The translations under genes were made by a program, and so were the position numbers. This document shows, in pieces, positions 6,631 through 55,194 of a stretch of 64,000 nt of DNA. The stretch's first letter is position 1, and every line of letters starts with the position of its first letter. The notes under the pieces are model-generated. The model worked only from the letters and a program-made list of their open reading frames with translations. It searched no databases and was not told where the DNA came from. The stretch comes from a phage. Where the stretch lies: sequence record PZ445453.1; one strand, given 5' to 3'.

Positions 6631-6631
6631 T

Positions 6632-7451: not shown

Positions 7452-7452
7452 T

Positions 7453-8594: not shown

Positions 8595-8647
8595 CACGAT
8601 CTTAACTTCTTGTTAGTATCAATATGTACTAACGATAAGGAGGGTTT

Positions 8648-9107: not shown

Positions 9108-9125
9108 GAGTAGTAAGTAAGATAT

Positions 9126-9174
9126 AAAGAGTATATAGTTAGTTATAGAGTTAGTAACATTACATATACTCTTT
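9126..9174. repeat. intergenic inverted repeat (AAAGAGTATAT ... ATATACTCTTT)
   Basis: 11-bp arms read at 9126-9136 and 9164-9174. Confidence 0.5.
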
Positions 9175-9314
9175 CCATGTATAACATGGAATATTCTCTA
9201 CCTCGCTATCGCTCGGTATATAAGATTAGGGTAGCATGTTTTTTACGAAAAGTAAAACTGTTTGTACCGATTGATAGCAGGTTTTTAATAGATTTTATCT
9301 ATGAGGAGTAGAAA

Positions 9315-9533
9315 GTGTACAAATTATATAAAGCAAAAGATAAGTTTACGGGTAATACATCTGGTTTCTATGTAACACCACGAGGTGTTGCTGTATTTGA
9401 TTGGATCTCTGGTACTCCAGATCGTGAAATGATCTCTCTTGTAAAACTGTCAGAACAAGAGTACACTTACGGTGACATTACAACATTCTATTCTCGTGCA
9501 GAGAATCCAAAACTGATTGCGGAGTGGGAATAA
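9315..9533 (+). CDS. hypothetical protein (GTG start)
   Basis: 72-aa ORF, GAGGAG RBS upstream of GTG. Confidence 0.45.
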   Translation: MYKLYKAKDKFTGNTSGFYVTPRGVAVFDWISGTPDREMISLVKLSEQEYTYGDITTFYSRAENPKLIAEWE

Positions 9534-13577: not shown

Positions 13578-14390
13578 TTATTTAGTCAAATGATCTTCTA
13601 TCATTTTTATGAAAGCAGGATTGCTAAAAGCATCTGCGGCCTTTTCTCGATAAACAAAGACTCCTCTATCTTCGTAAAGAAGAGTTTCTTCGTAATTAAT
13701 TCCTGGGTTAACAACGATCATTTTTGTACCCATATTAAGTGCAGGGAATAATTCCCAATTAAAATTGATAACTTGGTTTGAACATCCTACTACTACAACC
13801 AAATCTTGCATGGTTAAAGTATCAAACAAGTGAGCCATATCTGCATACAAAGGTGCAGCCTCACCAAAAAATACAACATTAGGCTTCACCCAGTTATAAT
13901 CATCTATGTTTATACTGCTGTAACCAATATCTACCAGTGTCTTGTAATCTCCAGGATGCATACGATAAACTATTTCAGGAAGATATCCGTGCACGTGAAT
14001 AACAGAATCCCTGTCTACACCTGCTCGCTCTAGTAGATCATCGACGTTTGTTGTCAAGTTTACTACTTGGTTAGGATATTCCTTAAACCACTTTGCTATT
14101 TGAATATGTGCAGCATTAGGTTGTACATCTTTAAGCTCAACACGTCTTTTGTTATAAAATTCGTGTGTTTTGGCATACAAATCCATACCGTTCTCGTCTA
14201 CACCACCAACCACGGGAAGATCTGGAGATGTTCTAACACGATAACCTGCTTGGAAAGCTCCAATATCGCAGACCTCTTGTAAATCATATTCCTCCCATAA
14301 GGCACGACCACTATCTGTGTCTGTTCGGAATGTTCGAATCCCACTGTCTGCACTTAAACCAGCGCCACTGACAAAAATTACTCTTCGCAT
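13578..14390 (-). CDS. Sir2-family (sirtuin-like) NAD+-dependent enzyme lacking Zn-ribbon
   Basis: GAGLSADSGIRTFR, TTNVDDL and VHG motifs; no CxxC...CxxC module. Confidence 0.8.
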   Translation of the reverse strand: MRRVIFVSGAGLSADSGIRTFRTDTDSGRALWEEYDLQEVCDIGAFQAGYRVRTSPDLPVVGGVDENGMDLYAKTHEFYNKRRVELKDVQPNAAHIQIAKWFKEYPNQVVNLTTNVDDLLERAGVDRDSVIHVHGYLPEIVYRMHPGDYKTLVDIGYSSINIDDYNWVKPNVVFFGEAAPLYADMAHLFDTLTMQDLVVVVGCSNQVINFNWELFPALNMGTKMIVVNPGINYEETLLYEDRGVFVYREKAADAFSNPAFIKMIEDHLTK

Positions 14391-25904: not shown

Positions 25905-26894
25905 TTAAACTTTATTTTCCCACCACTCTTTGTTATCTACATACCAATCAATGGTTGAATAAAGTTTTTCTTCAAATGTGCCTTTAGCTTTCCACCCTAA
26001 TTCCTTTTCAATCTTATAAGGATTCACTTCGTATCTTAAATCATGTCCAGGTCTATCTGTAACCATCTCAATAAGGCTACAAGCATCTGTTTCAGATGGA
26101 TACACCGCATCCATATAATCACAAATCATATAGATTACATCAATATTAGTTCTAGGGTTTCTGCTCCCAATATTATATGTTTCTCCAGATTTGCCTTTAG
26201 TTACTACTAGGTGTAATGCTTCTGCGTGATCGTCAACGTATAACCAATCTCTTACTTGAAGACCATTGCCATAAACAGGGATTGGTTTATGCATCAAGAT
26301 ATTTGTTATCGTTTTAGGTATTAGTTTTTCTGGATGATGATATGCTCCAAAATTATTTGAACAATTTGTTATAACTGTCGGAATACCATAAGTACGATGC
26401 CACGCTCTTACCAAATGGTCGCTTGCAGCTTTAGATGCAGCATATGGACTACTTGGCTTATAAGGATTCTGTTCTGTAAACGGATAATCCCCTTCTTCCA
26501 TATCACCATACACTTCATCTGTTGAAATATGATGAAACATTTTAAGATTTGATTTATCTCCCATTAAACGAACAGCTTCTAGAAGATTAAATGTTCCAAC
26601 AATATTTGAATTTATAAAAACACTCGGTGATGCTATTGAATTATCTACGTGACTTTCTGCTGCAAGATGCATTATATAATCTGGATTAACATCTGCCACA
26701 ATCTTAGCAGTTAACTGAGCATTTGTCAAGTCAACACGACAAAACTTTACATTAGGTGTTTCTGATAAATTTCTAGGGTCTGAAGCGTAACCCCATTTAT
26801 CTATAACGTAAATATCATTCTTAGTGTTTTTAGCCAGGAAACGAACTACCGCACTTCCAATAAAGCCTAAACCACCTGTTACTAAGTATTTCAT
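25905..26894 (-). CDS. rmlB: dTDP-glucose 4,6-dehydratase
   Basis: [23 protein letters not shown] (YxxxK), RPGHDLRY. Confidence 0.9.
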
Positions 26895-36880: not shown

Positions 36881-37873
36881 CTACTTCTTCACCATCCCAA
36901 GAAGTAAATTTAACGCCATCTGGGAACCATCATAATACTGATCTTTAACTGTCTGAAAAAGTTCAGCCTGTGTTTTACATTTGGAAATAAGATTAAAGCA
37001 AGTAATATCTCCAAACTTAACATCGAAATCTTGGTAAGGTCGAATACTATCTGTCTTATCGCCCATTAGCATTTGATAAGCTAACCAGTAACTACCCCAG
37101 CCCTTAATTTCTTTTTTCTTACCTTTTTCTACGATCCAGATATCGCCGATAGATTCATCAATCAGAATAATACAAGGATTTTTATAAACACCATCCTCTT
37201 TATAAAAGTTAAAGAGTAAACTCGGTGTGTGCAAGCTATCTTTGTCGATAGATGCTACAATATGAGAAAACTTACCAGTTTCCTTGTAGGCTTTATACCC
37301 TGCATATCCATAGATTTCTAAAGCATCATCTGCCTCAATACCAGTAACAACGTCACCGTTATGTTTTTCAACTAGATAATCTTTAGTATCTGATAAATGG
37401 ATTGGTCTTAAATCTGATCGTTCTGATTTATATTCTTTTGGCATTTTGAAAGAATGCCGGAAGGTTTTTCCTACCCCGATGACACCGCAATACTTTTGAA
37501 GTTTTAGGTGATCCATCATCTGGGTTATTTTTGTCTTTGCAGCTTGAAACGTAAAAGAAATATTGTCTGGGACTATTTGAACGTCTTTTATTTCAAAATC
37601 TTCTCTAGAGAACAACTTCTTACCAGCAGCTTCGCGTTGCGCGTTAAGTGCTCCTAGCCATCCTCCAATATTTTTTGAAGATTTACCCCAAAAATCTGTT
37701 CTTGTTTCAAACTCTTTTACATTACCGGAAGCCTTGTGTACAGCGTGGATTTTTCTTTGTTCTAAAGCTGAAGACGCTTGGAACGCCACTTGATCGTAGT
37801 CTATTGCAAGAATTGTGTTCTCGTCAACATATTTGTGCAGGTCTTCCGGTTGGATTAAAATGTAGCCGCTAAT
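36881..37873 (-). CDS. T4-type RNase H / 5'-3' flap endonuclease, non-canonical start
   Basis: GIEADDALEI, SIDKD, GDKTDSIRP align to T4 RNase H; conserved N-terminal block ILAIDYDQVAFQ lies upstream of the GTG used by the ORF track, so CDS extended to an in-frame ATT. Confidence 0.65.
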   Translation of the reverse strand: MSGYILIQPEDLHKYVDENTILAIDYDQVAFQASSALEQRKIHAVHKASGNVKEFETRTDFWGKSSKNIGGWLGALNAQREAAGKKLFSREDFEIKDVQIVPDNISFTFQAAKTKITQMMDHLKLQKYCGVIGVGKTFRHSFKMPKEYKSERSDLRPIHLSDTKDYLVEKHNGDVVTGIEADDALEIYGYAGYKAYKETGKFSHIVASIDKDSLHTPSLLFNFYKEDGVYKNPCIILIDESIGDIWIVEKGKKKEIKGWGSYWLAYQMLMGDKTDSIRPYQDFDVKFGDITCFNLISKCKTQAELFQTVKDQYYDGSQMALNLLLGMVKK

Positions 37874-40299: not shown

Positions 40300-41415
40300 T
40301 TACTCTGCTGGTTCCCAAGTACCTGGAATCATCTTACGTACACGTACCCCAACAGGTTTGGTAGGAATACCTTCGTCTGAAAATTCTTCGTACTCTATTT
40401 CAACAAATTGACCAATAAGTGTCAAAGCATTTTCTTCTTTACGATAGTTAATGGTTTCATCTGAATCCTTACGCATCAGGAATTCGACTACTTTACCATT
40501 TTCCATCTCGCCTGTCAATACCCCGTCACCATTTTTATCACGTTTTGCACTGACTACCTTAACTTCAAGAGTCTGCCGTGGTTTACGTTTAATAACATCA
40601 TAAGAACGTTTATCAAACTCGTAAACACCTTGTGCGTTACGATACACCACACCTTCCGCTTTTTCACGTAGAGCCTTTGCATAGAATTCATCAAACTGCT
40701 CTTGGTTTTCAATGTATTCTGTATGTACTACACAAATAAGTTCATCTAAACCTTTATCTTCAACAACTTCTTTTAGAGCAGCTAAAACTTGAACCCTCTT
40801 CTCAAATGGTACAGATGGCACAGGAACATCATATACATAGTATTTAAGAAGCGGAGTGTTAGCATTATGCTTTTTCCACGCACTATTAATTTGTTGAAGG
40901 CTAAGGACACCCAAGCCAGCAAAAACTTCACCGTCAAGAGGATGACCAACTACTTCTTTAATGAAGGTTGGAATTTCTTTCCAGTGAGGTGGAAGTTTAT
41001 ATACCTCCCCAGCTTTAGATAAACATTCACCTTGCATGTTAATCATTGAACGTAGACCATTCAATTTATATTGTGCATAACCTGGGAACAAAACACGATC
41101 AGCATAATCTTTATAATCCTGACATTTCATGGGTGTGGAAGGAACATGGTTTTCAGCTTCCTCTTTTGTTTTATAATACCCATTCTTAAGTTGCTTTGTC
41201 CATTTGGCAAGAGCTTCTATTTCAGCTTGTTCTTCTGCTGTTGTTTCATTTGAGCGACCAATATTTTTAGGTTCTGCTGTATAAGATTTGCTAGTAATCT
41301 TTCCACCTAATTGACCATGAGCAACAGTTACAACACTACCTTCGGTATAGACTGACCACTGTTTAATTTTACCTGTAGAAGTTTTACCATATAATGTAGG
41401 ATTAGTTTGTTTCAT
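40300..41415 (-). CDS. ATP-dependent DNA ligase
   Basis: Motif I KLNGLR, III DGEVF, IV EGVVYR, V VIKRK; start trimmed to ATG 41415 with GGAGG RBS. Confidence 0.85.
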   Translation of the reverse strand: MKQTNPTLYGKTSTGKIKQWSVYTEGSVVTVAHGQLGGKITSKSYTAEPKNIGRSNETTAEEQAEIEALAKWTKQLKNGYYKTKEEAENHVPSTPMKCQDYKDYADRVLFPGYAQYKLNGLRSMINMQGECLSKAGEVYKLPPHWKEIPTFIKEVVGHPLDGEVFAGLGVLSLQQINSAWKKHNANTPLLKYYVYDVPVPSVPFEKRVQVLAALKEVVEDKGLDELICVVHTEYIENQEQFDEFYAKALREKAEGVVYRNAQGVYEFDKRSYDVIKRKPRQTLEVKVVSAKRDKNGDGVLTGEMENGKVVEFLMRKDSDETINYRKEENALTLIGQFVEIEYEEFSDEGIPTKPVGVRVRKMIPGTWEPAE

Positions 41416-41605
41416 CTTTAACCTCCAGTTGCGAAAGAACCCATTTAGCCATTTCAATTTCACCGTGTAGTCTGCCTAGTTCATAGGCATCATCAATATT
41501 ACCACCAGTGTAATCATCCACCATAAAGTAAGGATCTTCGCTACTGTTAGGTGCGTTTGCAATTCTCGTTAGTTCTTCAATAAATGTCATAGTTACCCTT
41601 ACCAA
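41402..41605 (-). CDS. hypothetical protein
   Basis: 67-aa ORF. Confidence 0.45.
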   Translation of the reverse strand: MVRVTMTFIEELTRIANAPNSSEDPYFMVDDYTGGNIDDAYELGRLHGEIEMAKWVLSQLEVKDETN

Positions 41606-41823
41606 TTATACACAAGAGTTTGAATCTCTTCCATCAAGTCTTCAAGATCTGTATCAACGTATTCAGAAGATGTTGCCATAAAGTATGTAATCATTGTGAA
41701 CCCTTCCGAAGAAAGGGCATCAAGGATATCATTAAACATATCTTCCATTTCAGTATTCTCACCAAATGAGAATAACATTTGTTGATCTTCGCTTACACCT
41801 TTAACATAGATAGCTGTACTCAT
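41599..41823 (-). CDS. hypothetical acidic protein
   Basis: 74-aa ORF, very acidic. Confidence 0.45.
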   Translation of the reverse strand: MSTAIYVKGVSEDQQMLFSFGENTEMEDMFNDILDALSSEGFTMITYFMATSSEYVDTDLEDLMEEIQTLVYNW

Positions 41824-41826
41824 ATA

Positions 41827-42147
41827 TTAATCCTTAAGACGTTCATTTAAATCTGCAATAACATCACCTAAATCTTCACATTCCAGTGTTAATTCTGAAA
41901 CTTGTCCACTCAAATAACAAACTTCTTCATTTAGATCTGAAATAATGTTTTCTAATGAATCTACTTGGTCATCATATGAACGTTTTGTTTCTTCAAGTTC
42001 TTCCGTAAGATCATTAATCAAATGGAGCAAAGATAAGATATAACCGTCTCCTGTCTCGTTCCTCCACTCACTTCCGTAGCGATAAATAATAATTTCACCA
42101 TTATCGACTACTGTAAAATACTTACCTTCACCAGAATAAATTTCCAT
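41827..42147 (-). CDS. hypothetical coiled-coil protein
   Basis: 106-aa ORF. Confidence 0.5.
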   Translation of the reverse strand: MEIYSGEGKYFTVVDNGEIIIYRYGSEWRNETGDGYILSLLHLINDLTEELEETKRSYDDQVDSLENIISDLNEEVCYLSGQVSELTLECEDLGDVIADLNERLKD

Positions 42148-42156
42148 ACACTCTCC

Positions 42157-42561
42157 TTATTGTAGCTTAAGTGAACTGCGAAGACGTTTCTCTTGCTGAT
42201 CACGAATATGTTGTGGAACCTCATGAATTGAGTCGTTACCGTGCCTATTTTCAACAACTAAAGAGATAACTTGATAACCAAACTCTTCAGCAAGAGTAAA
42301 ATAAGGTTTAAGTTCTTTCTCTGTGGTTGAAGTGTTAGAGACAATAATCTTTTTAATATTAGATGCCATAGCATCACGAACAATACTCTGACACCATGCG
42401 TGTGCTTTACCTACATTCTCTGGCTTCCAATCGTAAACACCACTTTCTGTGTAATGATATTGATCTGCCTCACAGATAGGCCAATAACCTTCAGAAATAA
42501 TTTCTGCTACTGTAGATTTACCTGCACCTGAAACACCACGTAAAATGATAAGTTGTTTCAT
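42157..42561 (-). CDS. P-loop kinase (polynucleotide-kinase-like)
   Basis: ILRGVSGAGKST Walker A at N-terminus, 134 aa. Confidence 0.6.
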   Translation of the reverse strand: MKQLIILRGVSGAGKSTVAEIISEGYWPICEADQYHYTESGVYDWKPENVGKAHAWCQSIVRDAMASNIKKIIVSNTSTTEKELKPYFTLAEEFGYQVISLVVENRHGNDSIHEVPQHIRDQQEKRLRSSLKLQ

Positions 42562-43494
42562 TTAACCCCCAAAGAAGTTTTCTATTTCTTTACGTCGCTC
42601 TTGTGGATCTAGAGCAGCCCATTGAACCTTCGTAAAATTATTTCGAAGCCATTCTAGCAAAGTATAATATTCTTCGTCAACAATTTGTTTAGCATTTTTT
42701 GGGTTGTCCCAAATCATATCCCACTTCTTATTGCCACCACGCATAAGGAACTTCTTAGCAAGATAGTATGGTGACTTAATCTTTAAGAGTAAGTTAAACG
42801 GATAGTTTGTTTCACGAACAACAAAGCCTTCGTGTCTACAATGTTTAGACATTTCAACAACATCTGAAAATTTAATCATCGGATAAACTTCAGGACGTTT
42901 AAACTTTGCAACAGATGCAATCCCATCAAGAACACCTTCAGGTAACATGAAACTTGTCCCATCAAGATTTTGAATTCTTGCTCCAATTAAGTATGCGCCT
43001 GGTTCTTCTTCGACAATATGTGGATCAGAAGGATCACAGATTTCAAAAAGGAAAGTTGCTTTTGCACTTTCTGTCCACTTAATGAAATACTCTATGTCGT
43101 CACACTCGGAAACAATACGGTTCTTTGCCATAATTGCAAAATCTGATTCTAGGCTCCCTGTTGTTGATACAACAAGTTTCCCTTTGTACACACCTACAGA
43201 TGCCATAAAACCGTTTACTTTACGGACAGCATCTACAAGTTCATCTGCTGGAAGATCTGTACCATTCTCAAAACGATTAAAGATTTTAGTAAAAGGCCAA
43301 ATAACAACATTGTCTTCTGAGTCAACAACCAACCCACGACAATCTAGAAGTCGTTTGTCAACGTTCCACAAATTATCCCAGAATACATTGTTTTTGTATT
43401 TAAGTACAGCAAGACCAGCATACTCTCCAGATTTAACTTCTTTTTTATGCACTAAACCTTTTGCAATCAGGTCATCACAATTGAACTTAGCCAC
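42562..43494 (-). CDS. RNA-ligase-like nucleotidyltransferase
   Basis: Motif I RKVNGFM, III FLFEICDP, IV HEGFVVRE, V LLLKIKSP. Confidence 0.6.
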   Translation of the reverse strand: MAKFNCDDLIAKGLVHKKEVKSGEYAGLAVLKYKNNVFWDNLWNVDKRLLDCRGLVVDSEDNVVIWPFTKIFNRFENGTDLPADELVDAVRKVNGFMASVGVYKGKLVVSTTGSLESDFAIMAKNRIVSECDDIEYFIKWTESAKATFLFEICDPSDPHIVEEEPGAYLIGARIQNLDGTSFMLPEGVLDGIASVAKFKRPEVYPMIKFSDVVEMSKHCRHEGFVVRETNYPFNLLLKIKSPYYLAKKFLMRGGNKKWDMIWDNPKNAKQIVDEEYYTLLEWLRNNFTKVQWAALDPQERRKEIENFFGG

Positions 43495-43495
43495 C

Positions 43496-44047
43496 TTAAT
43501 CTCCTTTGATTATCTTATGATGGTCTACAACAACAATATCACGTTTATCCATAATAGAGATGATTTCGTCAAAATGCAAGATTTTTCCGTGTGCATCCCA
43601 ACCAACATCCAACATTTTCCCATACAAATGATCAGGGAATGATCCGTGAGAGTGTCCGTGTAGCATGATTGATCCATGCCCTTGTTTATTCCAGGCAGCC
43701 ATAGGGTAATGGCTTAAGACGAAAAACAGCTTCTGATATTTCACTTCGTCATAATAAACCACTTCTCCATACTCTGCAAGCACTTTTCGGTGTTTGCTGT
43801 AATCATGGTTCCCAACACAATAAGTAATATCCCCTTGGAGGCGGGAAGCAATCTTACGGGTATCTTCTTCAGTCCCGAAACAGAAGTCCCCAAGATGGTA
43901 CATCTTTACTCCTGGTGTTGTGGCACATTTGTTCCATGCTTCGATCAGTGCTTCTGTCATATGCTCCATATCTTCCCACGGTCGATATTCAGGAGCAAAC
44001 TCTCGAATACGTTTGTGCATAAAATGCAAATCACTTGTAATAAACAT
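43496..44047 (-). CDS. calcineurin-like metallophosphoesterase
   Basis: SDLHF, LGDFCFG, GNHD, HGHSH motifs. Confidence 0.7.
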   Translation of the reverse strand: MFITSDLHFMHKRIREFAPEYRPWEDMEHMTEALIEAWNKCATTPGVKMYHLGDFCFGTEEDTRKIASRLQGDITYCVGNHDYSKHRKVLAEYGEVVYYDEVKYQKLFFVLSHYPMAAWNKQGHGSIMLHGHSHGSFPDHLYGKMLDVGWDAHGKILHFDEIISIMDKRDIVVVDHHKIIKGD

Positions 44048-44409
44048 TAGTATAATCCCTCGCTGAATAGTTCACTATCGTGACCATTTCTTTCATAGTT
44101 AATTTGTTTGGCGTTATCTGCAATGATATAAGCATCTTTGCGACTCCACCAATTATAATACTGATCAATAAACCCTTGATTATCAGGTAAGCAAAACAGT
44201 TTATCGATCAATCCTGCATCTTTTAAAACATTAAGTTGTGCAGATAGTACAGGATTTGCATGCCTAACACAAGGAATAATTAACTCTTCGCCATTGTTGA
44301 GAATATACTTATTCGCAGCGCAGACTATAACACGTTGAGCATAGTGATCCTCACCAATCCAGGTAAGAGGTTGGTAACAAATATCATGTTGATTAGTAGC
44401 GCACATCAA
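44047..44409 (-). CDS. hypothetical protein
   Basis: 120-aa ORF, ATGA overlap. Confidence 0.5.
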   Translation of the reverse strand: MMCATNQHDICYQPLTWIGEDHYAQRVIVCAANKYILNNGEELIIPCVRHANPVLSAQLNVLKDAGLIDKLFCLPDNQGFIDQYYNWWSRKDAYIIADNAKQINYERNGHDSELFSEGLY

Positions 44410-44564
44410 TTTTCTCCATACTCTTTTAATTTATCAGCGAAAAAACTGTAATCAGGAAGTAAAAGATCATTACTCGTATCGCTCCAGTTTTCTTCCTCTC
44501 TATAGATAAAATGCCCTTCATCCTCTTCTTGCTCTGACCAAACTGAATAATGCATAATACCTAC

Positions 44565-44939
44565 TTAATAGTTAACACGTTTAATTTCAACACCATAGGA
44601 TGAAATAAAATTTTCCTTAGCTAACATATATTTACCAGCAGCAGAAGGGTTTGATGTATGGACATAGATAGTTTTAAGAGCATCCCATTCACCCGCATAC
44701 AACATACATTCTACGTCTAAGAATGCATGATATCCTTCCTGATCTTCTCCAAGATCATTATCGAAGTGTATCTCTGAGATATTATTGAAATTATCTTCAT
44801 CTGAAACAAAAGATAACCAATCCTCAAAAGATTTTAACCAAATAGCATCCTCATAACCATAATCTTTAGGATCTCTTAAATCGTCTAACCAAAGAATTTT
44901 AGCCACTATCAACCCCCTTCCTGTTTCTCTTCTTTCCAA
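44565..44939 (-). CDS. hypothetical protein
   Basis: 124-aa ORF. Confidence 0.5.
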   Translation of the reverse strand: MERRETGRGLIVAKILWLDDLRDPKDYGYEDAIWLKSFEDWLSFVSDEDNFNNISEIHFDNDLGEDQEGYHAFLDVECMLYAGEWDALKTIYVHTSNPSAAGKYMLAKENFISSYGVEIKRVNY

Positions 44940-46873: not shown

Positions 46874-46902
46874 TTGACTTTAGATCTATCTGTAGGTAGA
46901 GT
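46874..46902 (+). promoter_or_regulatory. sigma70-like promoter TTGACT-N17-TAGAGT
   Basis: Read upstream of prs. Confidence 0.5.
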
Positions 46903-46941
46903 AGAGAACATAAAGTCCTAACTCAACTAAGGAGATAAAGA

Positions 46942-47835
46942 ATGAAAGTTAGTATTCTACATGGTGTTGACTGTTATGTTACTGATGTAGACGTTAAAGT
47001 GTTTACATTCTCTGGTGGAGAACAACATGTTCAATTAGATACGAACCTGTCAGGTTTCAATCATGCTACAGACAGAATCTTACTCACTTTAGAAGTAAGA
47101 TCTGCTAAAGACTTGATGACTTTGGTTATGACTAAGAATGCATTGGACAATATGCTGTATCATAAACCATATTGTGTTGATTTACTCATGTTGTATGTAC
47201 CGTATGCACGACAAGACAGAGTGTGTGAGCCTGGGGAAGCATTCGGAGTTAAAGCATTTGCTTCTATAATTAATTCATTAAATTTCTCACGTGTTATCGT
47301 TGCTGATCCACATAGTGATGTTACTCCAGCAGTGTTTGACAGACTTTGTGTAATACCTCAAGAAGAGATTGCTTACGAAACTTTAAAATGGAAGTTACGT
47401 ATGGAGAATTTTGCTCTTGTTAGCCCTGATGGTGGTGCTCTTAAGAAAATATTTAAATTATCTAAGAAAATGGCTTTAGATGTGTTCTGTGCAGAGAAGG
47501 TTAGAGATACCGCAACAGGTGCTATTGTTCGTACAGACATTTCTGTACAGGATTTCAATAAGCGTAACCTGATGATCGTAGATGATATCTGTGATGGTGG
47601 TAGAACTTTTATTGAGTTGGCTAAAGTGCTACGTGCTCGTAACGCAGGTAAGATTGAGTTGTATGTTACACACGGTATCTTTTCTAAAGGTCTTAAAGAG
47701 TTAAGTGAGCACTTTGACTGCATTCATTCTCTTAATGTGTGGGAAGATAACATCCAAGAAGATTCCGGTGTTCTTGTTAAGAATCAGTCAGATTTGCAGC
47801 AACAAATTGTATCTCCATACGTGTGGAATTTTTAA
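46942..47835 (+). CDS. prs: ribose-phosphate pyrophosphokinase (PRPP synthetase)
   Basis: MIVDDICDGGRTF PRPP-binding loop, ~297 aa. Confidence 0.8.
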   Translation: MKVSILHGVDCYVTDVDVKVFTFSGGEQHVQLDTNLSGFNHATDRILLTLEVRSAKDLMTLVMTKNALDNMLYHKPYCVDLLMLYVPYARQDRVCEPGEAFGVKAFASIINSLNFSRVIVADPHSDVTPAVFDRLCVIPQEEIAYETLKWKLRMENFALVSPDGGALKKIFKLSKKMALDVFCAEKVRDTATGAIVRTDISVQDFNKRNLMIVDDICDGGRTFIELAKVLRARNAGKIELYVTHGIFSKGLKELSEHFDCIHSLNVWEDNIQEDSGVLVKNQSDLQQQIVSPYVWNF

Positions 47836-47845
47836 ATAATAAGTG

Positions 47846-47874
47846 TTGACAATAGGGAGTATGCTTAGTAAGAT
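47846..47874 (+). promoter_or_regulatory. sigma70-like promoter TTGACA-N17-TAAGAT
   Basis: Read upstream of Nampt gene. Confidence 0.55.
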
Positions 47875-47906
47875 ACTCCCACACTAACAAACAAGGAGAC
47901 ATAACT

Positions 47907-49640
47907 ATGAATATTTTTGCACCTTTTGCTACTGATTGGTATAAACCTGGTCACAAGCAGATGTACAACCAAAATACAAAACTCATTTTCTCTAATTTAA
48001 CTCCTCGTAATGATAAAAACTTTGCACACTATGCAGATCGTGAAGCACGTGGTGTCATTGTTTTAGGTATTCGTCGAGCAGTAACCGATGCTCTTGTAAC
48101 TATGTGGGACGGCTTCTTTAAAATGTCTCGTAGTGCAGCAGTAAATAAATTTTATCGTATGTCTAAGAATGCATTAGGTGCTTCTGCTCCTTCTGCTGAG
48201 TGTTGGGGTGAATTGCACGATTTAGGTTATCTTCCGCTGGAAGTTCGATCTCTGCCGGAAGGTGTTTTGTGTCCTATTGGTGTTCCTGTGTTTACTGTGC
48301 ATAATACTTTAGAAAAATTCTTTTGGTTAACTAACTATGTGGAAACACTGTTGTCAGATGAAACTTGGAAGACAATGACTAATGCCACAGCAGCTTTTCA
48401 GTATAAGCGTATCGCTATGGCATATGCGATGGCAACGTGTGATAATATTGATCACGTTAACTTCCAGTGTCATGATTTTAGCCTACGTGGTTTAAGCAAT
48501 ATCGAAGATGGTTATAAGAGTGGTATCGCTCATTTGGCATCTTTCACAGGAACAGATAATATTCTGGCTATTGAAACTGTGCATGATTATTATGGTATTG
48601 ATTATGATCAGTTTGTTGCAGGTTCTATTCCGGCAACAGAACATTCAGTAGCAACAACTAACATTGGAGCTATTGTTGAAGATCTGAAGAAACATTTCCC
48701 ACATCTTAAAGATGATGTAGATGGGCTTCGTTATGTAGCAGAAAAAGAGTTTCTTCGTCGTTATATCGAAGAAATTGTTCCAGAAGGTTTTTGTTCATAT
48801 GTAGCAGACTCTTATGACTATTGGGCTGTATTGACTCGCATTCTGGTAGAATTGAAAGATTCCATTATGTCACGAAATGGTCGTCTTGTTATTCGTCCAG
48901 ATTCAGGAGATCCGGTTAAAGTTGTTGCAGGATACAATGTTGAATCTTTTGATAACTATGAAGACCTCTTAAATAATGGTATTGCGACAGCCACTGAAGT
49001 AGTTCATTTGGCTGATGTTAATAAGTATTACAATGTTCTTCAGGATTGCAGCGTTGCTGATTGTATTGACGAAACTTATGAGATTCCTTATTGTGAAGCA
49101 GTAGGTTCTATTCAAATCCTTTGGGAAGTGTTTGGTGGTACTATCAACCGAAAAGGCTACAAGGTTCTTGATCAGCATATCGGTATGATTTATGGCGATT
49201 CTATTACTGTTGAACGAGAACACGAAATCTTACGCCGACTGAAGAAGAAAGGTTTTGCAGCTTCCAATATTGTATTTGGTGTTGGTAGTTATACTTATCA
49301 GTTCAATACACGAGATACTTTTGGTTTTGCTGTTAAAGCAACAGGTAGTATTATCGGTGAACACGAGATTTTGGTAAGTAAAGAGCCTAAAACTGATCCT
49401 GGTAAACGCTCTGCAAAAGGTTTTATTAAGGTTGTTAAGGATGCCAATGGTAATCTCTCTCTTGTAGATAATCTTTCTTTTAAAGATATCCAGGATGAAG
49501 ACAATGAATTACAAGTTATCTTCAAGGATGGTAAGGTTATTATACCACAAGTAGAAGGACGTGATGAAACATTCACTGATATCCGCAACCGTGTTGACGT
49601 AGAGGTTCTTCGTACTATGGGAACCATCCAGGTTGACTAA
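47907..49640 (+). CDS. nadV: nicotinamide phosphoribosyltransferase (Nampt)
   Basis: N-terminal TDWYKPGHKQMY resembles Nampt DSYKVTHYKQYP; SFTGTDN block. Confidence 0.88.
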   Translation: MNIFAPFATDWYKPGHKQMYNQNTKLIFSNLTPRNDKNFAHYADREARGVIVLGIRRAVTDALVTMWDGFFKMSRSAAVNKFYRMSKNALGASAPSAECWGELHDLGYLPLEVRSLPEGVLCPIGVPVFTVHNTLEKFFWLTNYVETLLSDETWKTMTNATAAFQYKRIAMAYAMATCDNIDHVNFQCHDFSLRGLSNIEDGYKSGIAHLASFTGTDNILAIETVHDYYGIDYDQFVAGSIPATEHSVATTNIGAIVEDLKKHFPHLKDDVDGLRYVAEKEFLRRYIEEIVPEGFCSYVADSYDYWAVLTRILVELKDSIMSRNGRLVIRPDSGDPVKVVAGYNVESFDNYEDLLNNGIATATEVVHLADVNKYYNVLQDCSVADCIDETYEIPYCEAVGSIQILWEVFGGTINRKGYKVLDQHIGMIYGDSITVEREHEILRRLKKKGFAASNIVFGVGSYTYQFNTRDTFGFAVKATGSIIGEHEILVSKEPKTDPGKRSAKGFIKVVKDANGNLSLVDNLSFKDIQDEDNELQVIFKDGKVIIPQVEGRDETFTDIRNRVDVEVLRTMGTIQVD

Positions 49641-49711
49641 ATAAAAACTTCGTGATAAGATTAAGGTAAGGAGAGCCTGCAACTGCCCTGGATGGGCTTC
49701 ACGAAGGATTT

Positions 49712-50053: not shown

Positions 50054-50083
50054 TTGACAACATAGCTAGTTATTTGCTAAGAT
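50054..50083 (+). promoter_or_regulatory. sigma70-like promoter TTGACA-N18-TAAGAT
   Basis: Read upstream of 50114 ORF. Confidence 0.5.
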
Positions 50084-51166: not shown

Positions 51167-51547
51167 ATGCCAAGTAATGATTATATGCGGGAATACATGA
51201 AAACTCGGTGGCAGAAGCGAAGAGCTTCCGCAATCCTCCAGCTTGGAGGTAAATGTGTTAATTGTGGGTCTGTAGATGACTTGGAATTTGATCATAAAGA
51301 TTCAAGCGAGAAGAAGTTTTATATTAGTCGAATGAGTTCATGTTCGGAGGCTAAATGGCAAGAAGAACTTGCCAAATGTCAACTTTTGTGTCATGCTTGT
51401 CACATGAAGAAGACAAGAATTTCCCAAGACATGGGAAACAGAATTAGAACCACGGTGTGTGTTTGCGGAGCAGTATTCCATAGTACAAAGGCTTATGCTG
51501 GACATACACGGTGGTGTAAAGAGTATGCATCGTTAGCCAAGCGGTAA
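51167..51547 (+). CDS. HNH homing-type endonuclease inside tRNA cluster
   Basis: CVNCGS...EFDHKD...LLCHACH; last 21 nt overlap the start of tRNA-Lys. Confidence 0.7.
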   Translation: MPSNDYMREYMKTRWQKRRASAILQLGGKCVNCGSVDDLEFDHKDSSEKKFYISRMSSCSEAKWQEELAKCQLLCHACHMKKTRISQDMGNRIRTTVCVCGAVFHSTKAYAGHTRWCKEYASLAKR

Positions 51548-51601
51548 GGCACTTGACTTTTAATCAAGGGAGCGAAGGTTCGAATCCTTCACGATGTACC
51601 A
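51527..51601 (+). tRNA. tRNA-Lys (anticodon TTT)
   Basis: Acceptor GCATCGT/ACGATGT, anticodon stem CTTGA/TCAAG loop CTTTTAA, T-arm GAAGG-TTCGAAT-CCTTC, CCA. Confidence 0.75.
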
Positions 51602-54519: not shown

Positions 54520-54951
54520 ATGATGATACTGACTATGTTAATAAACCTACTGAAGAATAAATGGGTTAGGTATCTTGTTCTTATTATAGCACTGTTTAGT
54601 GGTTTGTATATTGGTTTAAACAAATTACACGACGATGTGTATACACAAGGCTACAACGCAGGTGTTGCTAAACAAGAACAAATATTACAGCAAAACCAAA
54701 TTAAAGCAAAACAGCAATTCGATATCTTACAAGCAAAAGCAGATTCAGAAAGATCTAAGTTGAATGAAAAAATTCATTCATTAACGAAAGAAAGAAATGA
54801 TCTTCTTACACAACTGGATAAGAAGAGTAATAACATAACACAAGAGAGAATAGATTATGCGAAAACATCTTCTGGCGCTATGTCTTGTTTTAGCCCTAAT
54901 GATGACGGGTTGCGCATCATCAACAACAGCTTCCCAGCCTCTGCTGATTGA
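54520..54951 (+). CDS. Rz-like inner-membrane spanin (i-spanin)
   Basis: N-terminal TM helix followed by long coiled coil, 143 aa. Confidence 0.55.
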   Translation: MMILTMLINLLKNKWVRYLVLIIALFSGLYIGLNKLHDDVYTQGYNAGVAKQEQILQQNQIKAKQQFDILQAKADSERSKLNEKIHSLTKERNDLLTQLDKKSNNITQERIDYAKTSSGAMSCFSPNDDGLRIINNSFPASAD

Positions 54952-55186
54952 GCAGTGTAAAGCCATAGCAACACAACAAATTAAAGCCCCTGATTCTGTC
55001 AGTATGGAGAAACCATCTACCCCTGTTTTATATACTCCTAATCAAATAAAGAAAGGAGTTACAAGATCAGAGGTAGTTGATAATCAAACTTTAAACAACG
55101 CTTTGTGGGAAAAAGATAGGATAAAACTTATCAGTTTGCAAAATTATATTAAAACATTACAAAGTGAAGGAATAATTTCTAATTAG
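54857..55186 (+). CDS. Rz1-like outer-membrane lipoprotein spanin (o-spanin)
   Basis: MRKHLLALCLVLALMMTGC lipobox; starts in alternate frame inside the 3' end of the Rz-like gene. Confidence 0.55.
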   Translation: MRKHLLALCLVLALMMTGCASSTTASQPLLIEQCKAIATQQIKAPDSVSMEKPSTPVLYTPNQIKKGVTRSEVVDNQTLNNALWEKDRIKLISLQNYIKTLQSEGIISN

Positions 55187-55194
55187 GAGGAGAT

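What the first reader, a model, noticed from the sequence alone, without database searches (positions are those of the whole stretch)
46942..49640. Nampt plus PRPP synthetase: phage NAD+ salvage pair
Adjacent genes encode a Prs (DICDGGRTF loop) and a Nampt (DWYKPGHKQMY). Together they make NMN from nicotinamide, ribose-5-phosphate and ATP. Such pairs are known in large virulent phages and are linked to resisting NAD+-depleting immunity. No NMN adenylyltransferase is recognisable here, so the last step would need a host enzyme or a gene outside the window.
Basis: established knowledge. Interest (0 to 1): 0.5.

Follow-up and report, generated by a model that had tools for sequence, protein, structure and literature searches.

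The report
Phage NAD+ rebuilding operon (NARP1)
These two adjacent phage genes are the already-published NARP1 counter-defence pair (Adps + Namat), which most likely rebuilds NAD+ directly from the ADP-ribose and nicotinamide left by bacterial NAD+-destroying immunity; they are not a PRPP synthetase plus Nampt making NMN, so no NMN adenylyltransferase is needed.

Summary
Two same-strand ORFs sit at 46942-47835 (297 aa, PRPP-synthetase-like) and 47907-49640 (577 aa, Nampt-like), with the quoted motifs.

The window is Escherichia phage JohannJBalmer (BASEL Bas62, phi92-like). Both proteins are already listed as NARP1 components in the supplementary tables of Osterman et al. [quoted passage not shown]

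In NARP1, Adps pyrophosphorylates ADP-ribose to ADPR-PP, and Namat joins ADPR-PP to nicotinamide to give NAD+ directly.

My tests place the window proteins on the NARP1 side:
- Adps-clade versus cellular Prs split, 500/500 bootstraps.
- Adps profile 289 bits versus Prs profile 83 bits.
- All Adps catalytic and acceptor residues kept, including K186.
- Namat carries the adenine-clamp signature GSYTYQFNTRD.
- In 160 IMG/VR loci that signature paired with an Adps neighbour 75/75 times, and the GG[GA]LL form with an Nmnat neighbour 75/75 times.
- No NMNAT found anywhere in the genome.

No enzyme of this phi92-type sub-lineage (36-40% identical to tested ones) has been assayed directly.

Verdict: real, ordinary, already known.

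The parts
46874..46902 (+). Weak sigma-70-like promoter candidate (TTGACT-N17-TAGAGT, 9/12) in the 409-nt divergent intergenic region upstream of adps
   Evidence: Consensus scan; sequence. Consensus match only, not evidence of function.
46929..46934 (+). Shine-Dalgarno AAGGAG, 7 nt before the adps ATG
   Evidence: Read directly from the sequence.
46942..47835 (+). adps (bas62_0248): ADP-ribose pyrophosphate (ADPR-PP) synthetase, a PRPS-fold enzyme, 297 aa
   Evidence: ORF; identical to QXV81594.1. Listed as MZ501084_00232 with 'Namat within 10 genes: Yes' in Osterman Table S1. Falls in the Adps clade, 500/500 bootstraps against cellular Prs. Adps HMM 289 bits versus Prs HMM 83 bits. NF002320 scores 97.6 bits (cutoff 297), like verified Adps at 74-101 and unlike E. 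coli Prs at 533. AF2 pLDDT 92.2.
47497..47499 (+). Adps catalytic lysine K186 (= ICP1 K185 = SPbetaL1 K162)
   Evidence: Alignment, which reproduces the published SPbetaL1 K162 position. K185A and K162A abolish activity (PMC13586617; bioRxiv 10.1101/2024.02.11.579819). Invariant in 40 homologs.
47581..47610 (+).
   Evidence: Maps to ICP1 D212, D213, C215-S220 and F221. The loop sequence is identical to Bas63 Adps. E. coli Prs has M-I-D-T-G-G-T-L here.
47846..47874 (+). Promoter-like TTGACA-N17-TAAGAT in the 71-nt adps-namat spacer, overlapped by an 8-bp perfect hairpin (47855-47862 / 47873-47880)
   Evidence: 10/12 match. The motif TTGAC[AT]-N17/18-TAAGAT occurs 4 times in the window against 0.11 expected, three of them here and before the next two ORFs. 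Hairpin MFE -15.3 kcal/mol, z = -2.68. Function untested.
47893..47898 (+). Shine-Dalgarno AAGGAG, 8 nt before the namat ATG
   Evidence: Read from the spacer sequence.
47907..49640 (+). namat (bas62_0249): nicotinamide ADP-ribose transferase, a Nampt-fold enzyme, 577 aa
   Evidence: ORF; identical to QXV81595.1. Listed as MZ501084_00233 'Adps-associated' in Osterman Table S2. Best PDB sequence and fold match is the SPbetaL1 Namat crystal structure 9w5x/9w5w (E 6e-118; TM 0.94 on target). Groups with Adps-linked and not Nmnat-linked homologs, 300/300 bootstraps. AF2 pLDDT 91.3.
48000..48023 (+). Namat selectivity-clamp loop (SCL), T32-P-R-N-D-K37-N-F39
   Evidence: Namat-type 'TPRxx[K/R]' form, found in 55/71 Adps-linked IMG/VR loci versus 'ESRGG' in Nmnat-linked ones. 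K37 and F39 are nearly invariant in the sub-lineage. The 4th residue is Asn rather than the stacking residue described for Bas63.
48642..48644 (+). Namat H246, the conserved histidine of the ATEHS motif
   Evidence: Invariant in all alignments. Its identification with the catalytic, phosphorylatable histidine of Nampt (mentioned for Namat/Nampt in PMC12774641) rests on my own knowledge of human Nampt H247. The paper's position was not read and no human sequence was aligned.
48663..48752 (+). Insertion 1 relative to SPbetaL1 Namat (residues 253-282); extends a helical hairpin
   Evidence: Alignment. AF2 helices 246-263 and 271-290. Partly conserved in the sub-lineage (R275 and E279 invariant).
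48894..48902 (+). Namat R330-P-D332 (ribose-binding; = SPbetaL1 R306/D308)
   Evidence: R306G and R306A abolish activity.
48933..49103 (+). Insertion 2 relative to SPbetaL1 Namat (residues 343-399); a small, well-ordered alpha/beta subdomain with variable sequence
   Evidence: Alignment. AF2 strands and helices with block pLDDT 89-96. Bas63 has a longer version. Adps-linked Namats range from 486 to 631 aa while Nmnat-linked Nampts are about 465 aa.
49284..49316 (+). Namat selectivity-clamp helix (SCH) signature G460-S-Y462-T-Y-Q-F466-N-T-R-D470
   Evidence: Matches the published Namat-only consensus GS-X-phi-X-phi-X-phi-TRD with aromatics at positions 3 and 7 (PMC12774641). NARP2-type proteins read GGGLLQ..RD. 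H. ducreyi NadV reads GAQTYQRNTRD and Xcc Nampt GGALLQKVDRD.

Best explanation
This is the NARP1 (NAD+ reconstitution pathway 1) counter-defence operon of phage JohannJBalmer (Bas62). When a bacterial defence system (SIR2-HerA/Nezha, type I Thoeris, DSR1/2, SEFIR, Kongming, SPARSA and the like) cleaves NAD+ into ADP-ribose and nicotinamide, the first enzyme, Adps (46942-47835), uses ATP to transfer a pyrophosphate onto the 1'' position of the distal ribose of ADPR, giving ADPR-PP + AMP. The second enzyme, Namat (47907-49640), displaces that pyrophosphate with nicotinamide and regenerates NAD+ in one step. The pathway recycles the defence system's own products, costs one ATP per NAD+, and needs neither PRPP, NMN nor any NMN adenylyltransferase. 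Shown for homologs: the chemistry and the anti-defence phenotype. Shown here: that the window proteins belong to those two enzyme clades and keep their catalytic and specificity residues. Inferred: that this particular phi92-type pair has the same activities.
For: (1) Identity and prior listing. The region is 100% identical to MZ501084.1 bas62_0248/0249. Both proteins appear in Osterman et al. Tables S1 and S2 as Namat-associated Adps and 'Adps-associated' Namat. The paper states that the operon recurs in four BASEL phages; Bas60 and Bas61 carry copies about 97% identical in DNA.
(2) Published mechanism for homologs: Bas63 genetics and metabolomics, SPbetaL1 enzymology, ICP1 Adps structures and kinetics, SPbetaL1 Namat crystal structures and mutants, a mycobacteriophage NARP1 reconstituted in vitro, and a bacterial Paenibacillus NARP1.
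(3) Adps versus Prs. In the NJ tree the window protein sits inside the Namat-linked clade next to ICP1, and the Prs versus Adps-clade split is found in 500/500 bootstraps. A leave-one-out Adps HMM gives 289 bits, an HMM of the four experimentally supported Adps gives 202 bits, and a Prs HMM gives 83 bits. The NCBIfam Prs model NF002320 gives 97.6 bits against a cutoff of 297, the same as verified Adps (74-101), while E. coli Prs scores 533.
(4) Adps residues F23, R90, H124, D163, K186, D214, D215, D218 and F223 correspond to ICP1 F18, R87, H121, D161, K185, D212, D213, D216 and F221. The PP loop CDGGRT is identical to that of Bas63.
(5) Namat has an intact catalytic core (D10, Y12, F191, R194, D217, H246, R330, D332, G430-D431) plus the clamp signature GSYTYQFNTRD. 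The closest genuine Nampt (HdNadV) and Xcc Nampt lack that signature.
(6) Independent association test on 160 IMG/VR loci: 75/75 with the GS-aromatic-x-aromatic motif have an Adps neighbour and no Nmnat, and 75/75 with GG[GA]LL have an Nmnat neighbour and no Adps. The 8 loci with neither partner are cut close to a contig end. The usual layout is Adps directly upstream on the same strand with a median gap of 92 nt; the window gap is 71 nt.
(7) No NMNAT was found anywhere in the genome.
(8) Structure: the top PDB fold hit of the Namat model is the Namat crystal structure (TM 0.94).
Against: No enzyme of this phi92-type sub-lineage has been assayed; I found no paper that tests Bas60-62 or phi92 NARP1. 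Identity to tested proteins is modest: Adps 36% to Bas63, about 40% to ICP1 and 35% to SPbetaL1; Namat 39% to Bas63 and 37-38% structure-based identity to SPbetaL1. Two ICP1 adenine or lid contacts are not conserved (F92 -> C95, F223 -> E225), though Bas63 lacks them too. The clamp-loop 4th residue is Asn, not the stacking residue described for Bas63; F39 may substitute, but that is inferred. The Adps model keeps a C-terminal helix (282-294), whereas loss of the C-terminal module was proposed as a family signature. Namat enzymes retain PRPP -> NMN side activity in vitro, so some NMN production cannot be excluded. The two sets in the IMG/VR test are not phylogenetically independent samples, so its p-value overstates the evidence.
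Confidence: 0.9

Rival explanations
1. ORF1 is a true PRPP synthetase and ORF2 a true Nampt. Together they make NMN from ribose-5-phosphate, ATP and nicotinamide, and a host NMN adenylyltransferase (NadR) or deamidase route (PncC) finishes NAD+.
For: Pfam, NCBIfam and PHROG names say Prs and Nampt. TIGR01251 is just above its cutoff (118 versus 113). Namat homologs can make NMN from PRPP in vitro at about half the rate of human Nampt when ADPR-PP is absent. E. coli does encode NadR and NadD.
Against: [quoted passage not shown] The window ORF1 falls outside cellular Prs (500/500 bootstraps; Prs HMM 83 bits versus Adps HMM 289 bits; NF002320 97.6 bits against a cutoff of 297). ORF2 has the adenine-clamp signature that is absent from every Nmnat-linked Nampt examined (0/75) and from solved genuine Nampts. 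Phage Nampts that do work through NMN have an Nmnat close by (75 of 79 GG[GA]LL loci have one within the 8-kb flanks, and the other four are cut within about 2 kb of the gene on the upstream side), and Bas62 has none.
Confidence: 0.05
2. A general nucleotide-metabolism booster: a phage PRPP synthetase that raises PRPP for purine, pyrimidine or NAD synthesis during replication, with the Nampt-like enzyme only loosely coupled and no role in counter-defence.
For: The genome encodes many nucleotide-metabolism genes (ribonucleotide reductases, thymidylate synthase, thymidine kinase). The fold is PRPS-like.
Against: The pairing with Namat is near-obligate: 97% of Adps-clade genes in the paper, and in my sample 75 of 79 Namat-type loci have an Adps neighbour while the other four are cut at or near a contig end on the upstream side. 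Deleting the homologous operon gives a phenotype specifically on NAD+-depleting defence hosts. The regulatory allosteric sites of Prs are degenerate in Adps.
Confidence: 0.03
3. A NARP1 variant with altered or extended substrate range. The phi92-type enzymes, with two Namat insertions and a divergent clamp loop, act on a modified ADPR species, or work together with the unlinked Macro-domain Adpp homolog (bas62_0068) as a split NARP1-AP that also counters RES-type (ADPR-1''-phosphate-producing) defences.
For: bas62_0068 is 41% identical (E 3e-36) to the characterised Adpp of Vibrio phage Gary over its full length, and it is the only such hit in the genome. Insertion 2 folds as an ordered subdomain inserted 10 residues after the RPD ribose-binding motif. 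The clamp-loop 4th residue differs from Bas63.
Against: Namat length variation (486-631 aa) is widespread in the Adps-linked clade, and Bas63, a proven standard NARP1, has even larger insertions. All core and clamp-helix residues are standard. The macrodomain gene is about 80 kb away beside a ComF-like PRTase and a HAD hydrolase, and it could serve RNA-repair by-product processing instead.
Confidence: 0.2

Closest known systems
NARP1 (Adps + Namat) of Escherichia phage JohannRWettstein (Bas63, genes 79-80) and Bacillus phage SPbetaL1 (genes 190-191); Osterman et al., bioRxiv 10.1101/2024.02.11.579819 (published in Nature in 2024, by my own knowledge)
   Same: Same two-gene architecture (Adps directly upstream of Namat, same strand). 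Same enzyme clades. Same catalytic residues (Adps K186 = K162; Namat R330 = R306). Same PP loop as Bas63 (CDGGRT). Same clamp-helix signature. The window's proteins are themselves listed in that paper's tables.
   Different: Only 36-39% identical to the Bas63 proteins. To SPbetaL1: Adps 35%, Namat 37-38% structure-based identity. Never assayed itself. The Namat insertions differ in length from Bas63 and are absent from SPbetaL1. The clamp loop reads NDK-N-F versus SDK-W-F (Bas63) and TSR-V (SPbetaL1).
Vibrio phage ICP1 Adps (UniProt F1D1Q1), structures in apo, ADPR/ATP and ADPR-PP/AMP states (PMC13586617)
   Same: About 40% identity, the nearest experimentally characterised Adps in my tree. 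F18, R87, H121, D161, K185, D212, D213, D216 and F221 are all conserved. PRPS-like fold.
   Different: ICP1 F92 and F223 are C95 and E225 here. The PP loop is CDGGRT instead of CDGAAS. The window protein is 17 residues longer, with a predicted C-terminal helix.
NARP2 (Nampt + bifunctional Nmnat/Nudix) of Vibrio phage KVP40 and relatives such as Xanthomonas phage LucasX
   Same: Also a phage NAD+ restoration pathway using a Nampt-fold enzyme and nicotinamide. Same catalytic core residues.
   Different: NARP2 uses PRPP, makes NMN and needs an Nmnat. Its Nampt has GG[GA]LLQ in place of GS-Y-T-Y-Q-F, a short ESRGG loop and a length of about 465 aa. It has no Adps partner.
NARP1-AP (Adps + Macro-domain Adpp + Namat) of Vibrio phage Gary (bioRxiv 10.64898/2026.01.28.702374)
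   Same: Same Adps and Namat core. Bas62 encodes a 41%-identical Adpp homolog.
   Different: In Gary the phosphatase lies between adps and namat. Here the operon has only a 71-nt spacer, and the Adpp-like gene (bas62_0068) is about 80 kb away, outside the window, with an extra N-terminal region of about 90 aa.
Cellular ribose-phosphate pyrophosphokinase (Prs/PRPS1) and nicotinamide phosphoribosyltransferase (Nampt/NadV)
   Same: Same folds and same transfer chemistry (pyrophosphoryl transfer to C1 of a ribose, then displacement by nicotinamide).
   Different: The acceptor is ADPR instead of ribose-5-phosphate, and the donor substrate of the second step is ADPR-PP instead of PRPP. The window proteins fail genuine-Prs profile thresholds and carry the adenine clamp that Nampt lacks.

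Membership tests
Adps (ADPR-PP synthetase, NARP1 step 1) | Falls in the phage Adps clade, separate from cellular Prs | tested here: met
   NJ tree of 18 Namat-linked sequences plus 6 cellular Prs: the split is found in 500/500 bootstraps and the window sits next to ICP1/RYC. Adps HMM built without the window gives 289 bits versus 83 bits for a Prs HMM. NF002320 gives 97.6 bits (cutoff 297), like verified Adps (74-101), while E. coli Prs scores 533.
Adps (ADPR-PP synthetase, NARP1 step 1) | A Namat gene in the immediate vicinity (97% of the clade) | tested here: met
   namat starts 71 nt downstream on the same strand. 67 of 76 IMG/VR loci with an Adps neighbour have the same layout.
Adps (ADPR-PP synthetase, NARP1 step 1) | Catalytic beta-hairpin lysine (ICP1 K185 / SPbetaL1 K162) and acceptor-site residues R87, H121, D161, D212, D213, D216 | tested here: met
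   K186, R90, H124, D163, D214, D215 and D218. All are invariant among 40 homologs.
Adps (ADPR-PP synthetase, NARP1 step 1) | Remodelled PP loop and donor site conserved among Adps homologs; aromatic contacts to the ADPR adenine (F18, F92) and an ATP lid (F221, F223) | tested here: inconclusive
   The PP loop CDGGRT is identical to Bas63 Adps and differs from Prs (DTGGT). F23 and F223 are conserved, but ICP1 F92 -> C95 and F223 -> E225. Bas63 has M and E at those positions.
Adps (ADPR-PP synthetase, NARP1 step 1) | Loss of the C-terminal alpha11-alpha12 filament module of Prs | tested here: inconclusive
   The protein is 297 aa against 315-337 aa for Prs, and in the alignment the C-terminal segment shows little similarity to the Prs C-terminal helix (filament-interface residues not checked individually). 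AF2 nevertheless predicts a C-terminal helix at 282-294 that ICP1 (280 aa) largely lacks.
Adps (ADPR-PP synthetase, NARP1 step 1) | Enzymatic activity: ADPR + ATP -> ADPR-PP + AMP, with no PRPP made from R5P | not testable with these tools
   Shown for SPbetaL1, ICP1 and DyoEdafos enzymes, not for Bas62.
Namat (nicotinamide ADPR transferase, NARP1 step 2) | Nampt-like catalytic core (SPbetaL1 D13, Y15, F189, R192, D215, catalytic His, R306, D308, G360-D361) | tested here: met
   D10, Y12, F191, R194, D217, H246, R330, D332 and G430-D431.
Namat (nicotinamide ADPR transferase, NARP1 step 2) | [quoted passage not shown] | tested here: met
   G460-SYTYQFNTR-D470, with Y462 and F466. The signature is absent from NARP2-type Nampts, HdNadV and Xcc Nampt. 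GS-aromatic-x-aromatic co-occurs with Adps in 75/75 loci and with Nmnat in 0/75.
Namat (nicotinamide ADPR transferase, NARP1 step 2) | Selectivity-clamp loop: 3rd residue R, K or Y; if K or Y, the 4th residue stacks on adenine | tested here: inconclusive
   The 3rd residue is K37 (met). The 4th is N38, an unlikely stacker. The 5th, F39, is nearly invariant in the sub-lineage and may take that role, which is an inference. This needs a dimer model with NAD+ or a structure.
Namat (nicotinamide ADPR transferase, NARP1 step 2) | Groups with Adps-associated rather than Nmnat-associated homologs | tested here: met
   300/300 bootstraps for the split, with the window on the Adps-linked side. Labelled 'Adps-associated' in the published Table S2. 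The top PDB hit is the Namat crystal structure.
Namat (nicotinamide ADPR transferase, NARP1 step 2) | Preference for ADPR-PP over PRPP, making NAD+ directly | not testable with these tools
   Shown for SPbetaL1 and DyoEdafos Namat, not for Bas62.
NARP2 (Nampt + Nmnat) | An NMN adenylyltransferase encoded in the same phage | tested here: not met
   tblastn of NadM/Nudix, NadD and NadR against the whole 144,831-bp genome gives best E-values of 0.3, 0.34 and 7.8. None is annotated.
NARP2 (Nampt + Nmnat) | Nampt of the PRPP-preferring clade (GG[GA]LLQ helix, short ESRGG loop) | tested here: not met
   The window has GSYTYQF and TPRNDKNF.
NARP1-AP (with Adpp phosphatase) | A Macro-domain ADPR-1''-P phosphatase gene within the NARP1 operon | tested here: not met
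   Only a 71-nt spacer separates adps and namat, and the flanking ORFs have no Macro domain. An Adpp homolog exists elsewhere in the genome (bas62_0068).
Canonical ribose-phosphate pyrophosphokinase (Prs) | Reaches the curated Prs equivalog or subfamily thresholds | tested here: not met
   NF002320 97.6/297, NF002095 97.2/296, and all other Prs equivalogs at or below 72 bits against cutoffs of 438-536. Only the broad TIGR01251 is marginally passed, 118/113.

The most novel reading that the evidence does not exclude
Bas62 (and probably the other phi92-like Justusliebigvirus phages) runs a 'split' NARP1-AP. The core Adps-Namat operon in this window would be complemented in trans by the unlinked Macro-domain Adpp homolog bas62_0068. 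That would extend NAD+ reconstitution to RES-type defences that leave ADPR-1''-phosphate, so operon-based surveys (15% of NARP1 phages) would undercount the extended pathway. Separately, the ordered subdomain of about 57 aa inserted just after the Namat RPD motif might add a function (regulation, partner binding or altered donor range) not present in the crystallised SPbetaL1 enzyme.
Probability: 0.2. Interest if true: 0.35.

Novelty: already known. Interest (0 to 1): 0.15.

Why it matters
NARP1 explains how roughly 4% of sequenced phages defeat the many bacterial defences that work by destroying NAD+. It involves two reactions (ADPR pyrophosphorylation and nicotinamide-ADPR-PP ligation) that were unknown before 2024. 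For this window the value is corrective. Public annotation, PHROGs, NCBIfam and Pfam all still call the genes 'ribose-phosphate pyrophosphokinase' and 'nicotinamide phosphoribosyltransferase', which leads readers, including the first-stage reader, to the wrong pathway and to a search for a non-existent missing NMNAT. The simple sequence rule replicated here could be used to re-annotate such pairs automatically: GS-aromatic-x-aromatic versus GG[GA]LL in the clamp helix, 75/75 versus 75/75 with the matching partner gene.

Tried and rejected
(1) I first assumed the window was Bas63, the phage used in the NARP1 paper. The locus tags showed it is Bas62 (JohannJBalmer); Bas63 is JohannRWettstein, a Felixounavirus with only 36-39% identical proteins.

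(2) I tried to locate the KVP40 Nampt and Nmnat with the published cloning primers and in KVP40 35-75 kb. The genes were synthesised (not amplified from phage DNA) and the primer sequences are absent from the stretch examined. The stretch also holds no Nampt homolog. I used nt-1, Cronuts and LucasX as NARP2-type references instead.

(3) My first motif classifier (strict aromatic at positions 3 and 7, narrow regex) left 26 loci unclassified and mislabelled GGALLQ. I replaced it with a broader rule. Position 7 is aromatic in 61/79 Adps-linked loci and C, M, H, G or L in the rest, so the published 'aromatic at 7' rule is not universal.

(4) The first bootstrap used a distance formula that saturated (NaN warning) and gave 487/500. 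Repeating it with a safe cap gave 500/500.

(5) I considered the metallophosphoesterase ORF at 43496-44047 as the 'phage phosphatase' of extended NARP1 and rejected it: the published Adpp is a Macro-domain protein.

(6) I considered NARP3 (PnuC + NadR-like) as a classification and rejected it, since it involves different proteins and tblastn with E. coli NadR finds nothing in the genome.

(7) I checked whether the Bas62 mention in the DarTG1 paper explained the macrodomain. It refers to a different NADAR protein.

(8) The Rfam scan of the window found only the tRNA array.

(9) NF006629 does not discriminate Namat from Nampt: all references pass it.

Full report
OBSERVATION. One is 46942-47835 (297 aa) and the other 47907-49640 (577 aa), separated by 71 nt. 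The quoted peptides are present: DICDGGRTF at residues 215-223 of ORF1 and DWYKPGHKQMY at residues 10-20 of ORF2. Profile scans assign ORF1 to the ribose-phosphate pyrophosphokinase superfamily (TIGR01251 118 bits; Pfam Pribosyltran and Pribosyl_synth; phrog_619 306 bits). They assign ORF2 to the Nampt/NAPRTase family (PF04095 131 bits; NF006629 462 bits; phrog_448 627 bits).

PROVENANCE. The region is 100% identical to Escherichia phage JohannJBalmer (MZ501084.1), a phi92-like Justusliebigvirus from the BASEL collection. The genes are bas62_0248 ('putative phosphoribosylpyrophosphate synthetase') and bas62_0249 ('nicotinamide phosphoribosyltransferase'). The window equals record positions 90312-144831 followed by 1-9481. 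It differs by a single 1-nt deletion far from these genes. Fifty-five other phage records carry the pair at 95% or more DNA identity, including phi92 and the BASEL phages EmilieFrey and PaulScherrer.

WHAT IS ALREADY KNOWN. Osterman et al. (bioRxiv 10.1101/2024.02.11.579819) started from this kind of Prs + Nampt pair, which 'recurred in four phages' of the BASEL set. They then showed three things:
- A new metabolite, ADPR-pyrophosphate, appears in infected cells.
- The purified SPbetaL1 'Prs' gave product from ADPR + ATP but none in the Prs-type control (so the authors concluded it is not a Prs), and the 'Nampt' converts ADPR-PP + nicotinamide directly into NAD+, preferring ADPR-PP over PRPP.

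They named the enzymes Adps and Namat and the pathway NARP1.

The window's two proteins are listed in that paper's supplementary tables. MZ501084_00232 is marked 'Namat within 10 genes: Yes', and MZ501084_00233 is labelled 'Adps-associated'. Later work supplied:
- Namat crystal structures and an adenine 'selectivity clamp' (PMC12774641).
- Adps structures from phage ICP1 (PMC13586617).
- A Macro-domain phosphatase extension, NARP1-AP.
- A RyR-domain glycosidase that feeds NARP1.
- An unrelated NARP3.

I found no paper that tests Bas60-62 or phi92 enzymes directly.

WHY MEMBERSHIP NEEDED TESTING. I first mistook the window for Bas63; it is Bas62. Its proteins are only 36% (Adps) and 39% (Namat) identical to those of Bas63. 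The Adps is about 40% identical to ICP1 Adps and 35% to SPbetaL1 Adps. SPbetaL1 Namat is itself 36% identical to human Nampt. Percent identity therefore cannot decide between Namat and Nampt, and I tested the published discriminators.

ADPS VERSUS PRS.
- Tree: I built an NJ tree of 18 Namat-linked sequences (including the four with experimental support) and six cellular Prs. The window protein sits inside the Namat-linked clade next to ICP1/RYC. The Prs versus Adps-clade split was recovered in 500/500 bootstraps; a first run with a saturating distance gave 487/500.
- Profiles built without the window sequence score it at 289 bits (all Adps), 202 bits (the four experimentally supported Adps only) and 83 bits (Prs).
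- On NCBIfam's Prs model NF002320 (cutoff 297) the window scores 97.6. That matches ICP1, SPbetaL1 and Bas63 Adps (80, 74 and 101), whereas E. coli Prs scores 533.
- Residue mapping onto ICP1 gives F23, R90, H124, D163, K186, D214, D215, D218 and F223 for F18, R87, H121, D161, K185, D212, D213, D216 and F221. The alignment reproduces the published SPbetaL1 K162. The PP loop CDGGRT is identical to that of Bas63.
- Two ICP1 contacts (F92, F223) are C95 and E225 here, and are M and E in Bas63.
- The AF2 model (pLDDT 92.2) has the PRPS fold (TM about 0.75). It keeps a C-terminal helix at 282-294, so the proposed 'loss of alpha11-alpha12' signature is only partly met.

NAMAT VERSUS NAMPT.
- The catalytic core is intact: D10, Y12, F191, R194, D217, H246, R330, D332 and G430-D431.
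- At the clamp helix the window reads G460-S-Y-T-Y-Q-F-N-T-R-D470, a full match to the Namat-only consensus GS-X-phi-X-phi-X-phi-TRD with aromatics at positions 3 and 7.
- The three Nmnat-type phage Nampts I fetched read GGGLLQ..RD.
- The closest genuine Nampt with a structure, H. ducreyi NadV, reads GAQTYQRNTRD, and Xcc Nampt reads GGALLQKVDRD.
- The AF2 model (pLDDT 91.3, pTM 0.90) matches the Namat crystal structures best (9w5x/9w5w, TM 0.94 on the target), ahead of HdNadV and human NAMPT.
- In an NJ tree of 36 sequences the Adps-linked group (with the window) separates from the Nmnat-linked group in 300/300 bootstraps.
- The clamp loop is of the Namat form TPRxxK (K37), but its 4th residue is Asn. 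The nearly invariant F39 is the likely stacker in this sub-lineage, which is an inference.

INDEPENDENT ASSOCIATION TEST. I retrieved 160 IMG/VR loci in two scans, one led by the window protein and one by Nmnat-linked Nampts. I classified each by clamp-helix motif and by partner gene within 8-kb flanks.
- GS-aromatic-x-aromatic: 75 loci with an Adps neighbour, 0 with an Nmnat.
- GG[GA]LL: 75 loci with an Nmnat neighbour, 0 with an Adps.
- The eight loci with neither partner are all cut close to a contig end (upstream flank at most about 2 kb).
- Two loci had no recognisable motif.

Adps lies directly upstream on the same strand in 67/76 cases (median gap 92 nt), as in the window. The two sets are not phylogenetically independent samples, so the Fisher p-value (2e-44) overstates the evidence. 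The partition is nevertheless complete.

NO NMNAT, AND NONE NEEDED. tblastn with a phage NadM/Nudix Nmnat, E. coli NadD and E. coli NadR against all 144,831 bp gives nothing better than E = 0.3. The annotation lists none. ORF1 has no fused NMNAT or Nudix domain. Under NARP1 this absence is expected.

ANATOMY AND EXPRESSION (INFERRED).
- The pair opens a rightward transcription block after a 409-nt divergent intergenic region.
- Both genes have AAGGAG ribosome-binding sites.
- A weak promoter-like site precedes adps (46874-46902).
- A better one (TTGACA-N17-TAAGAT, 47846-47874) lies in the adps-namat spacer. That motif occurs four times in the window against 0.11 expected, three of them before namat and the next two small ORFs.
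- The spacer also forms an 8-bp perfect hairpin (-15.3 kcal/mol, z = -2.7).
- No intrinsic terminator separates the genes.

WHAT IS PARTICULAR TO THIS COPY. Relative to the crystallised SPbetaL1 Namat (491 aa), the window protein has two insertions. Residues 253-282 lengthen a helical hairpin. Residues 343-399 form a small, confidently predicted alpha/beta subdomain inserted 10 residues after the RPD ribose-binding motif. Such insertions are common in the Adps-linked clade (lengths 486-631 aa; Bas63 593 aa), and Nmnat-linked Nampts cluster at about 465 aa. They are therefore a clade feature of unknown role and give no reason to doubt membership.

VERDICT. The feature is real and the gene-family calls are right. 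This is NARP1, already described, and this very phage is catalogued in the original paper. Confidence that the pair performs ADPR -> ADPR-PP -> NAD+ is about 0.9. The residual doubt is that no phi92-type enzyme has been assayed. Interest is low. The main practical point is that current database names for these genes are misleading.

Noticed in passing
Outside the window: MZ501084.1 56867-57601, minus strand (L011:6867-7601), bas62_0068; neighbours bas62_0069 and bas62_0070: A 244-aa protein whose C-terminal Macro domain is 41% identical (E 3e-36) over the full length of the characterised ADPR-1''-phosphate phosphatase Adpp of Vibrio phage Gary (the NARP1-AP accessory enzyme). Here it is unlinked, about 80 kb from the NARP1 operon, has an extra N-terminal region of about 90 aa, and sits beside a ComF-like PRTase_3 and a HAD hydrolase. 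It may be a 'split' NARP1-AP, or it may process an RNA-repair by-product.
   Followed up: partly
window about 13578-14390, minus strand (bas62_0183): A phage-encoded SIR2-family protein (PF02146, 79.8 bits), potentially NAD+-consuming, in the same genome as an NAD+-rebuilding operon. Its role is unknown.
   Followed up: partly
window 36931 (record 127242), inside bas62_0226 'putative 5'-exonuclease': The only difference between the window and GenBank MZ501084.1 is a 1-nt deletion (CCATTCAT -> CCATCAT). It truncates the minus-strand ORF from 344 aa (record) to 302 aa (window 36881-37789) and leaves a 40-aa remnant ORF.
   Followed up: yes
window 54519/54520: The window runs across the end of the linear GenBank record: positions 1-54519 correspond to record 90312-144831 and positions 54520-64000 to record 1-9481. 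It therefore represents a circularly permuted or joined form of the genome.
   Followed up: yes
window 47846-47874, 49633-49661, 50054-50083 (+) and 26701-26729 (-): A recurring promoter-like motif, TTGAC[AT]-N17/18-TAAGAT: 4 matches against 0.11 expected. Three precede namat and the next two small ORFs, which suggests a phage promoter class with a non-consensus -10.
   Followed up: partly
window 47855-47880 (+): A perfect 8-bp inverted repeat, GGGAGTAT/ATACTCCC, in the adps-namat spacer, overlapping the promoter-like -10 element. As RNA the MFE is -15.3 kcal/mol, z = -2.68. There is no T-run, so it is not a typical terminator.
   Followed up: partly
window about 41000-44939, minus strand (bas62_0236 to bas62_0241): An RNA-repair-like cluster just upstream of NARP1: polynucleotide kinase, RNA ligase, a calcineurin-like phosphoesterase (43496-44047) and a cREC_REC 'cyclic-phosphate processing receiver' domain protein (44565-44939, PF20274, 53.9 bits). 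It lies next to a 14-15 gene tRNA array at 50.5-53.4 kb.
   Followed up: partly
window 51167-51547 (+) and the tRNA at 51527-51598: A putative HNH-type homing endonuclease ORF (bas62_0256) whose 3' end overlaps the start of the tRNA-Lys gene within the tRNA array.
   Followed up: no
P0096 (metagenomic homolog, 867 aa): A Namat homolog interrupted by an insert of about 275 aa placed exactly inside the catalytic motif: RLVIRPD | CYDGETKLL...VMVCGN | SGDPVH. The Cys start and the Asn-Ser end are intein-like. It is not an Adps-Namat fusion.
   Followed up: partly
L004 (Vibrio phage ICP1 isolate 2017_Dha_AC) about 4269-5729: In this isolate the Namat reading frame has an in-frame stop near 4347-4349, and the gene is annotated from an internal GTG (439 aa). 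Other ICP1 isolates have a full-length gene. This may be a pseudogenised or split Namat.
   Followed up: no
Osterman Table S1 entry FJ373894_00125 (Shigella phage Ag3); phrog_12872: An ORF that begins as Adps and continues as Namat, an apparent Adps-Namat fusion or deletion-derived chimera. This explains why both window proteins hit phrog_12872.
   Followed up: no
P0181, P0182, P0214, P0238, P0240 (homologs of the window Adps): Adps-like proteins 43-46% identical to the window's are encoded on large bacterial contigs or chromosomes (Geminocystis, Cyanobacterium, Thorsellia, Endozoicomonas), consistent with the recently reported bacterial NARP1 modules. Their genomic context was not examined.
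   Followed up: no
Outside the window: bas62_0106 (MZ501084.1 78042-78593): A YbiA-like/NADAR N-glycosidase. A DarTG1 counter-defence paper notes a distinct NADAR protein in Bas60-62. Together with the macrodomain, the sirtuin and NARP1, this phage carries several ADP-ribose/NAD-related genes.
   Followed up: no
IMG/VR loci L015-L094 (Adps-linked Namats): Position 7 of the published clamp-helix signature is aromatic in only 61/79 Adps-linked loci. The rest have C (8), M (4), H (3), G (2) or L (1). 'Aromatic at position 7' is therefore not universal, whereas Ser2 + aromatic3 + aromatic5 was universal in this sample.
   Followed up: partly
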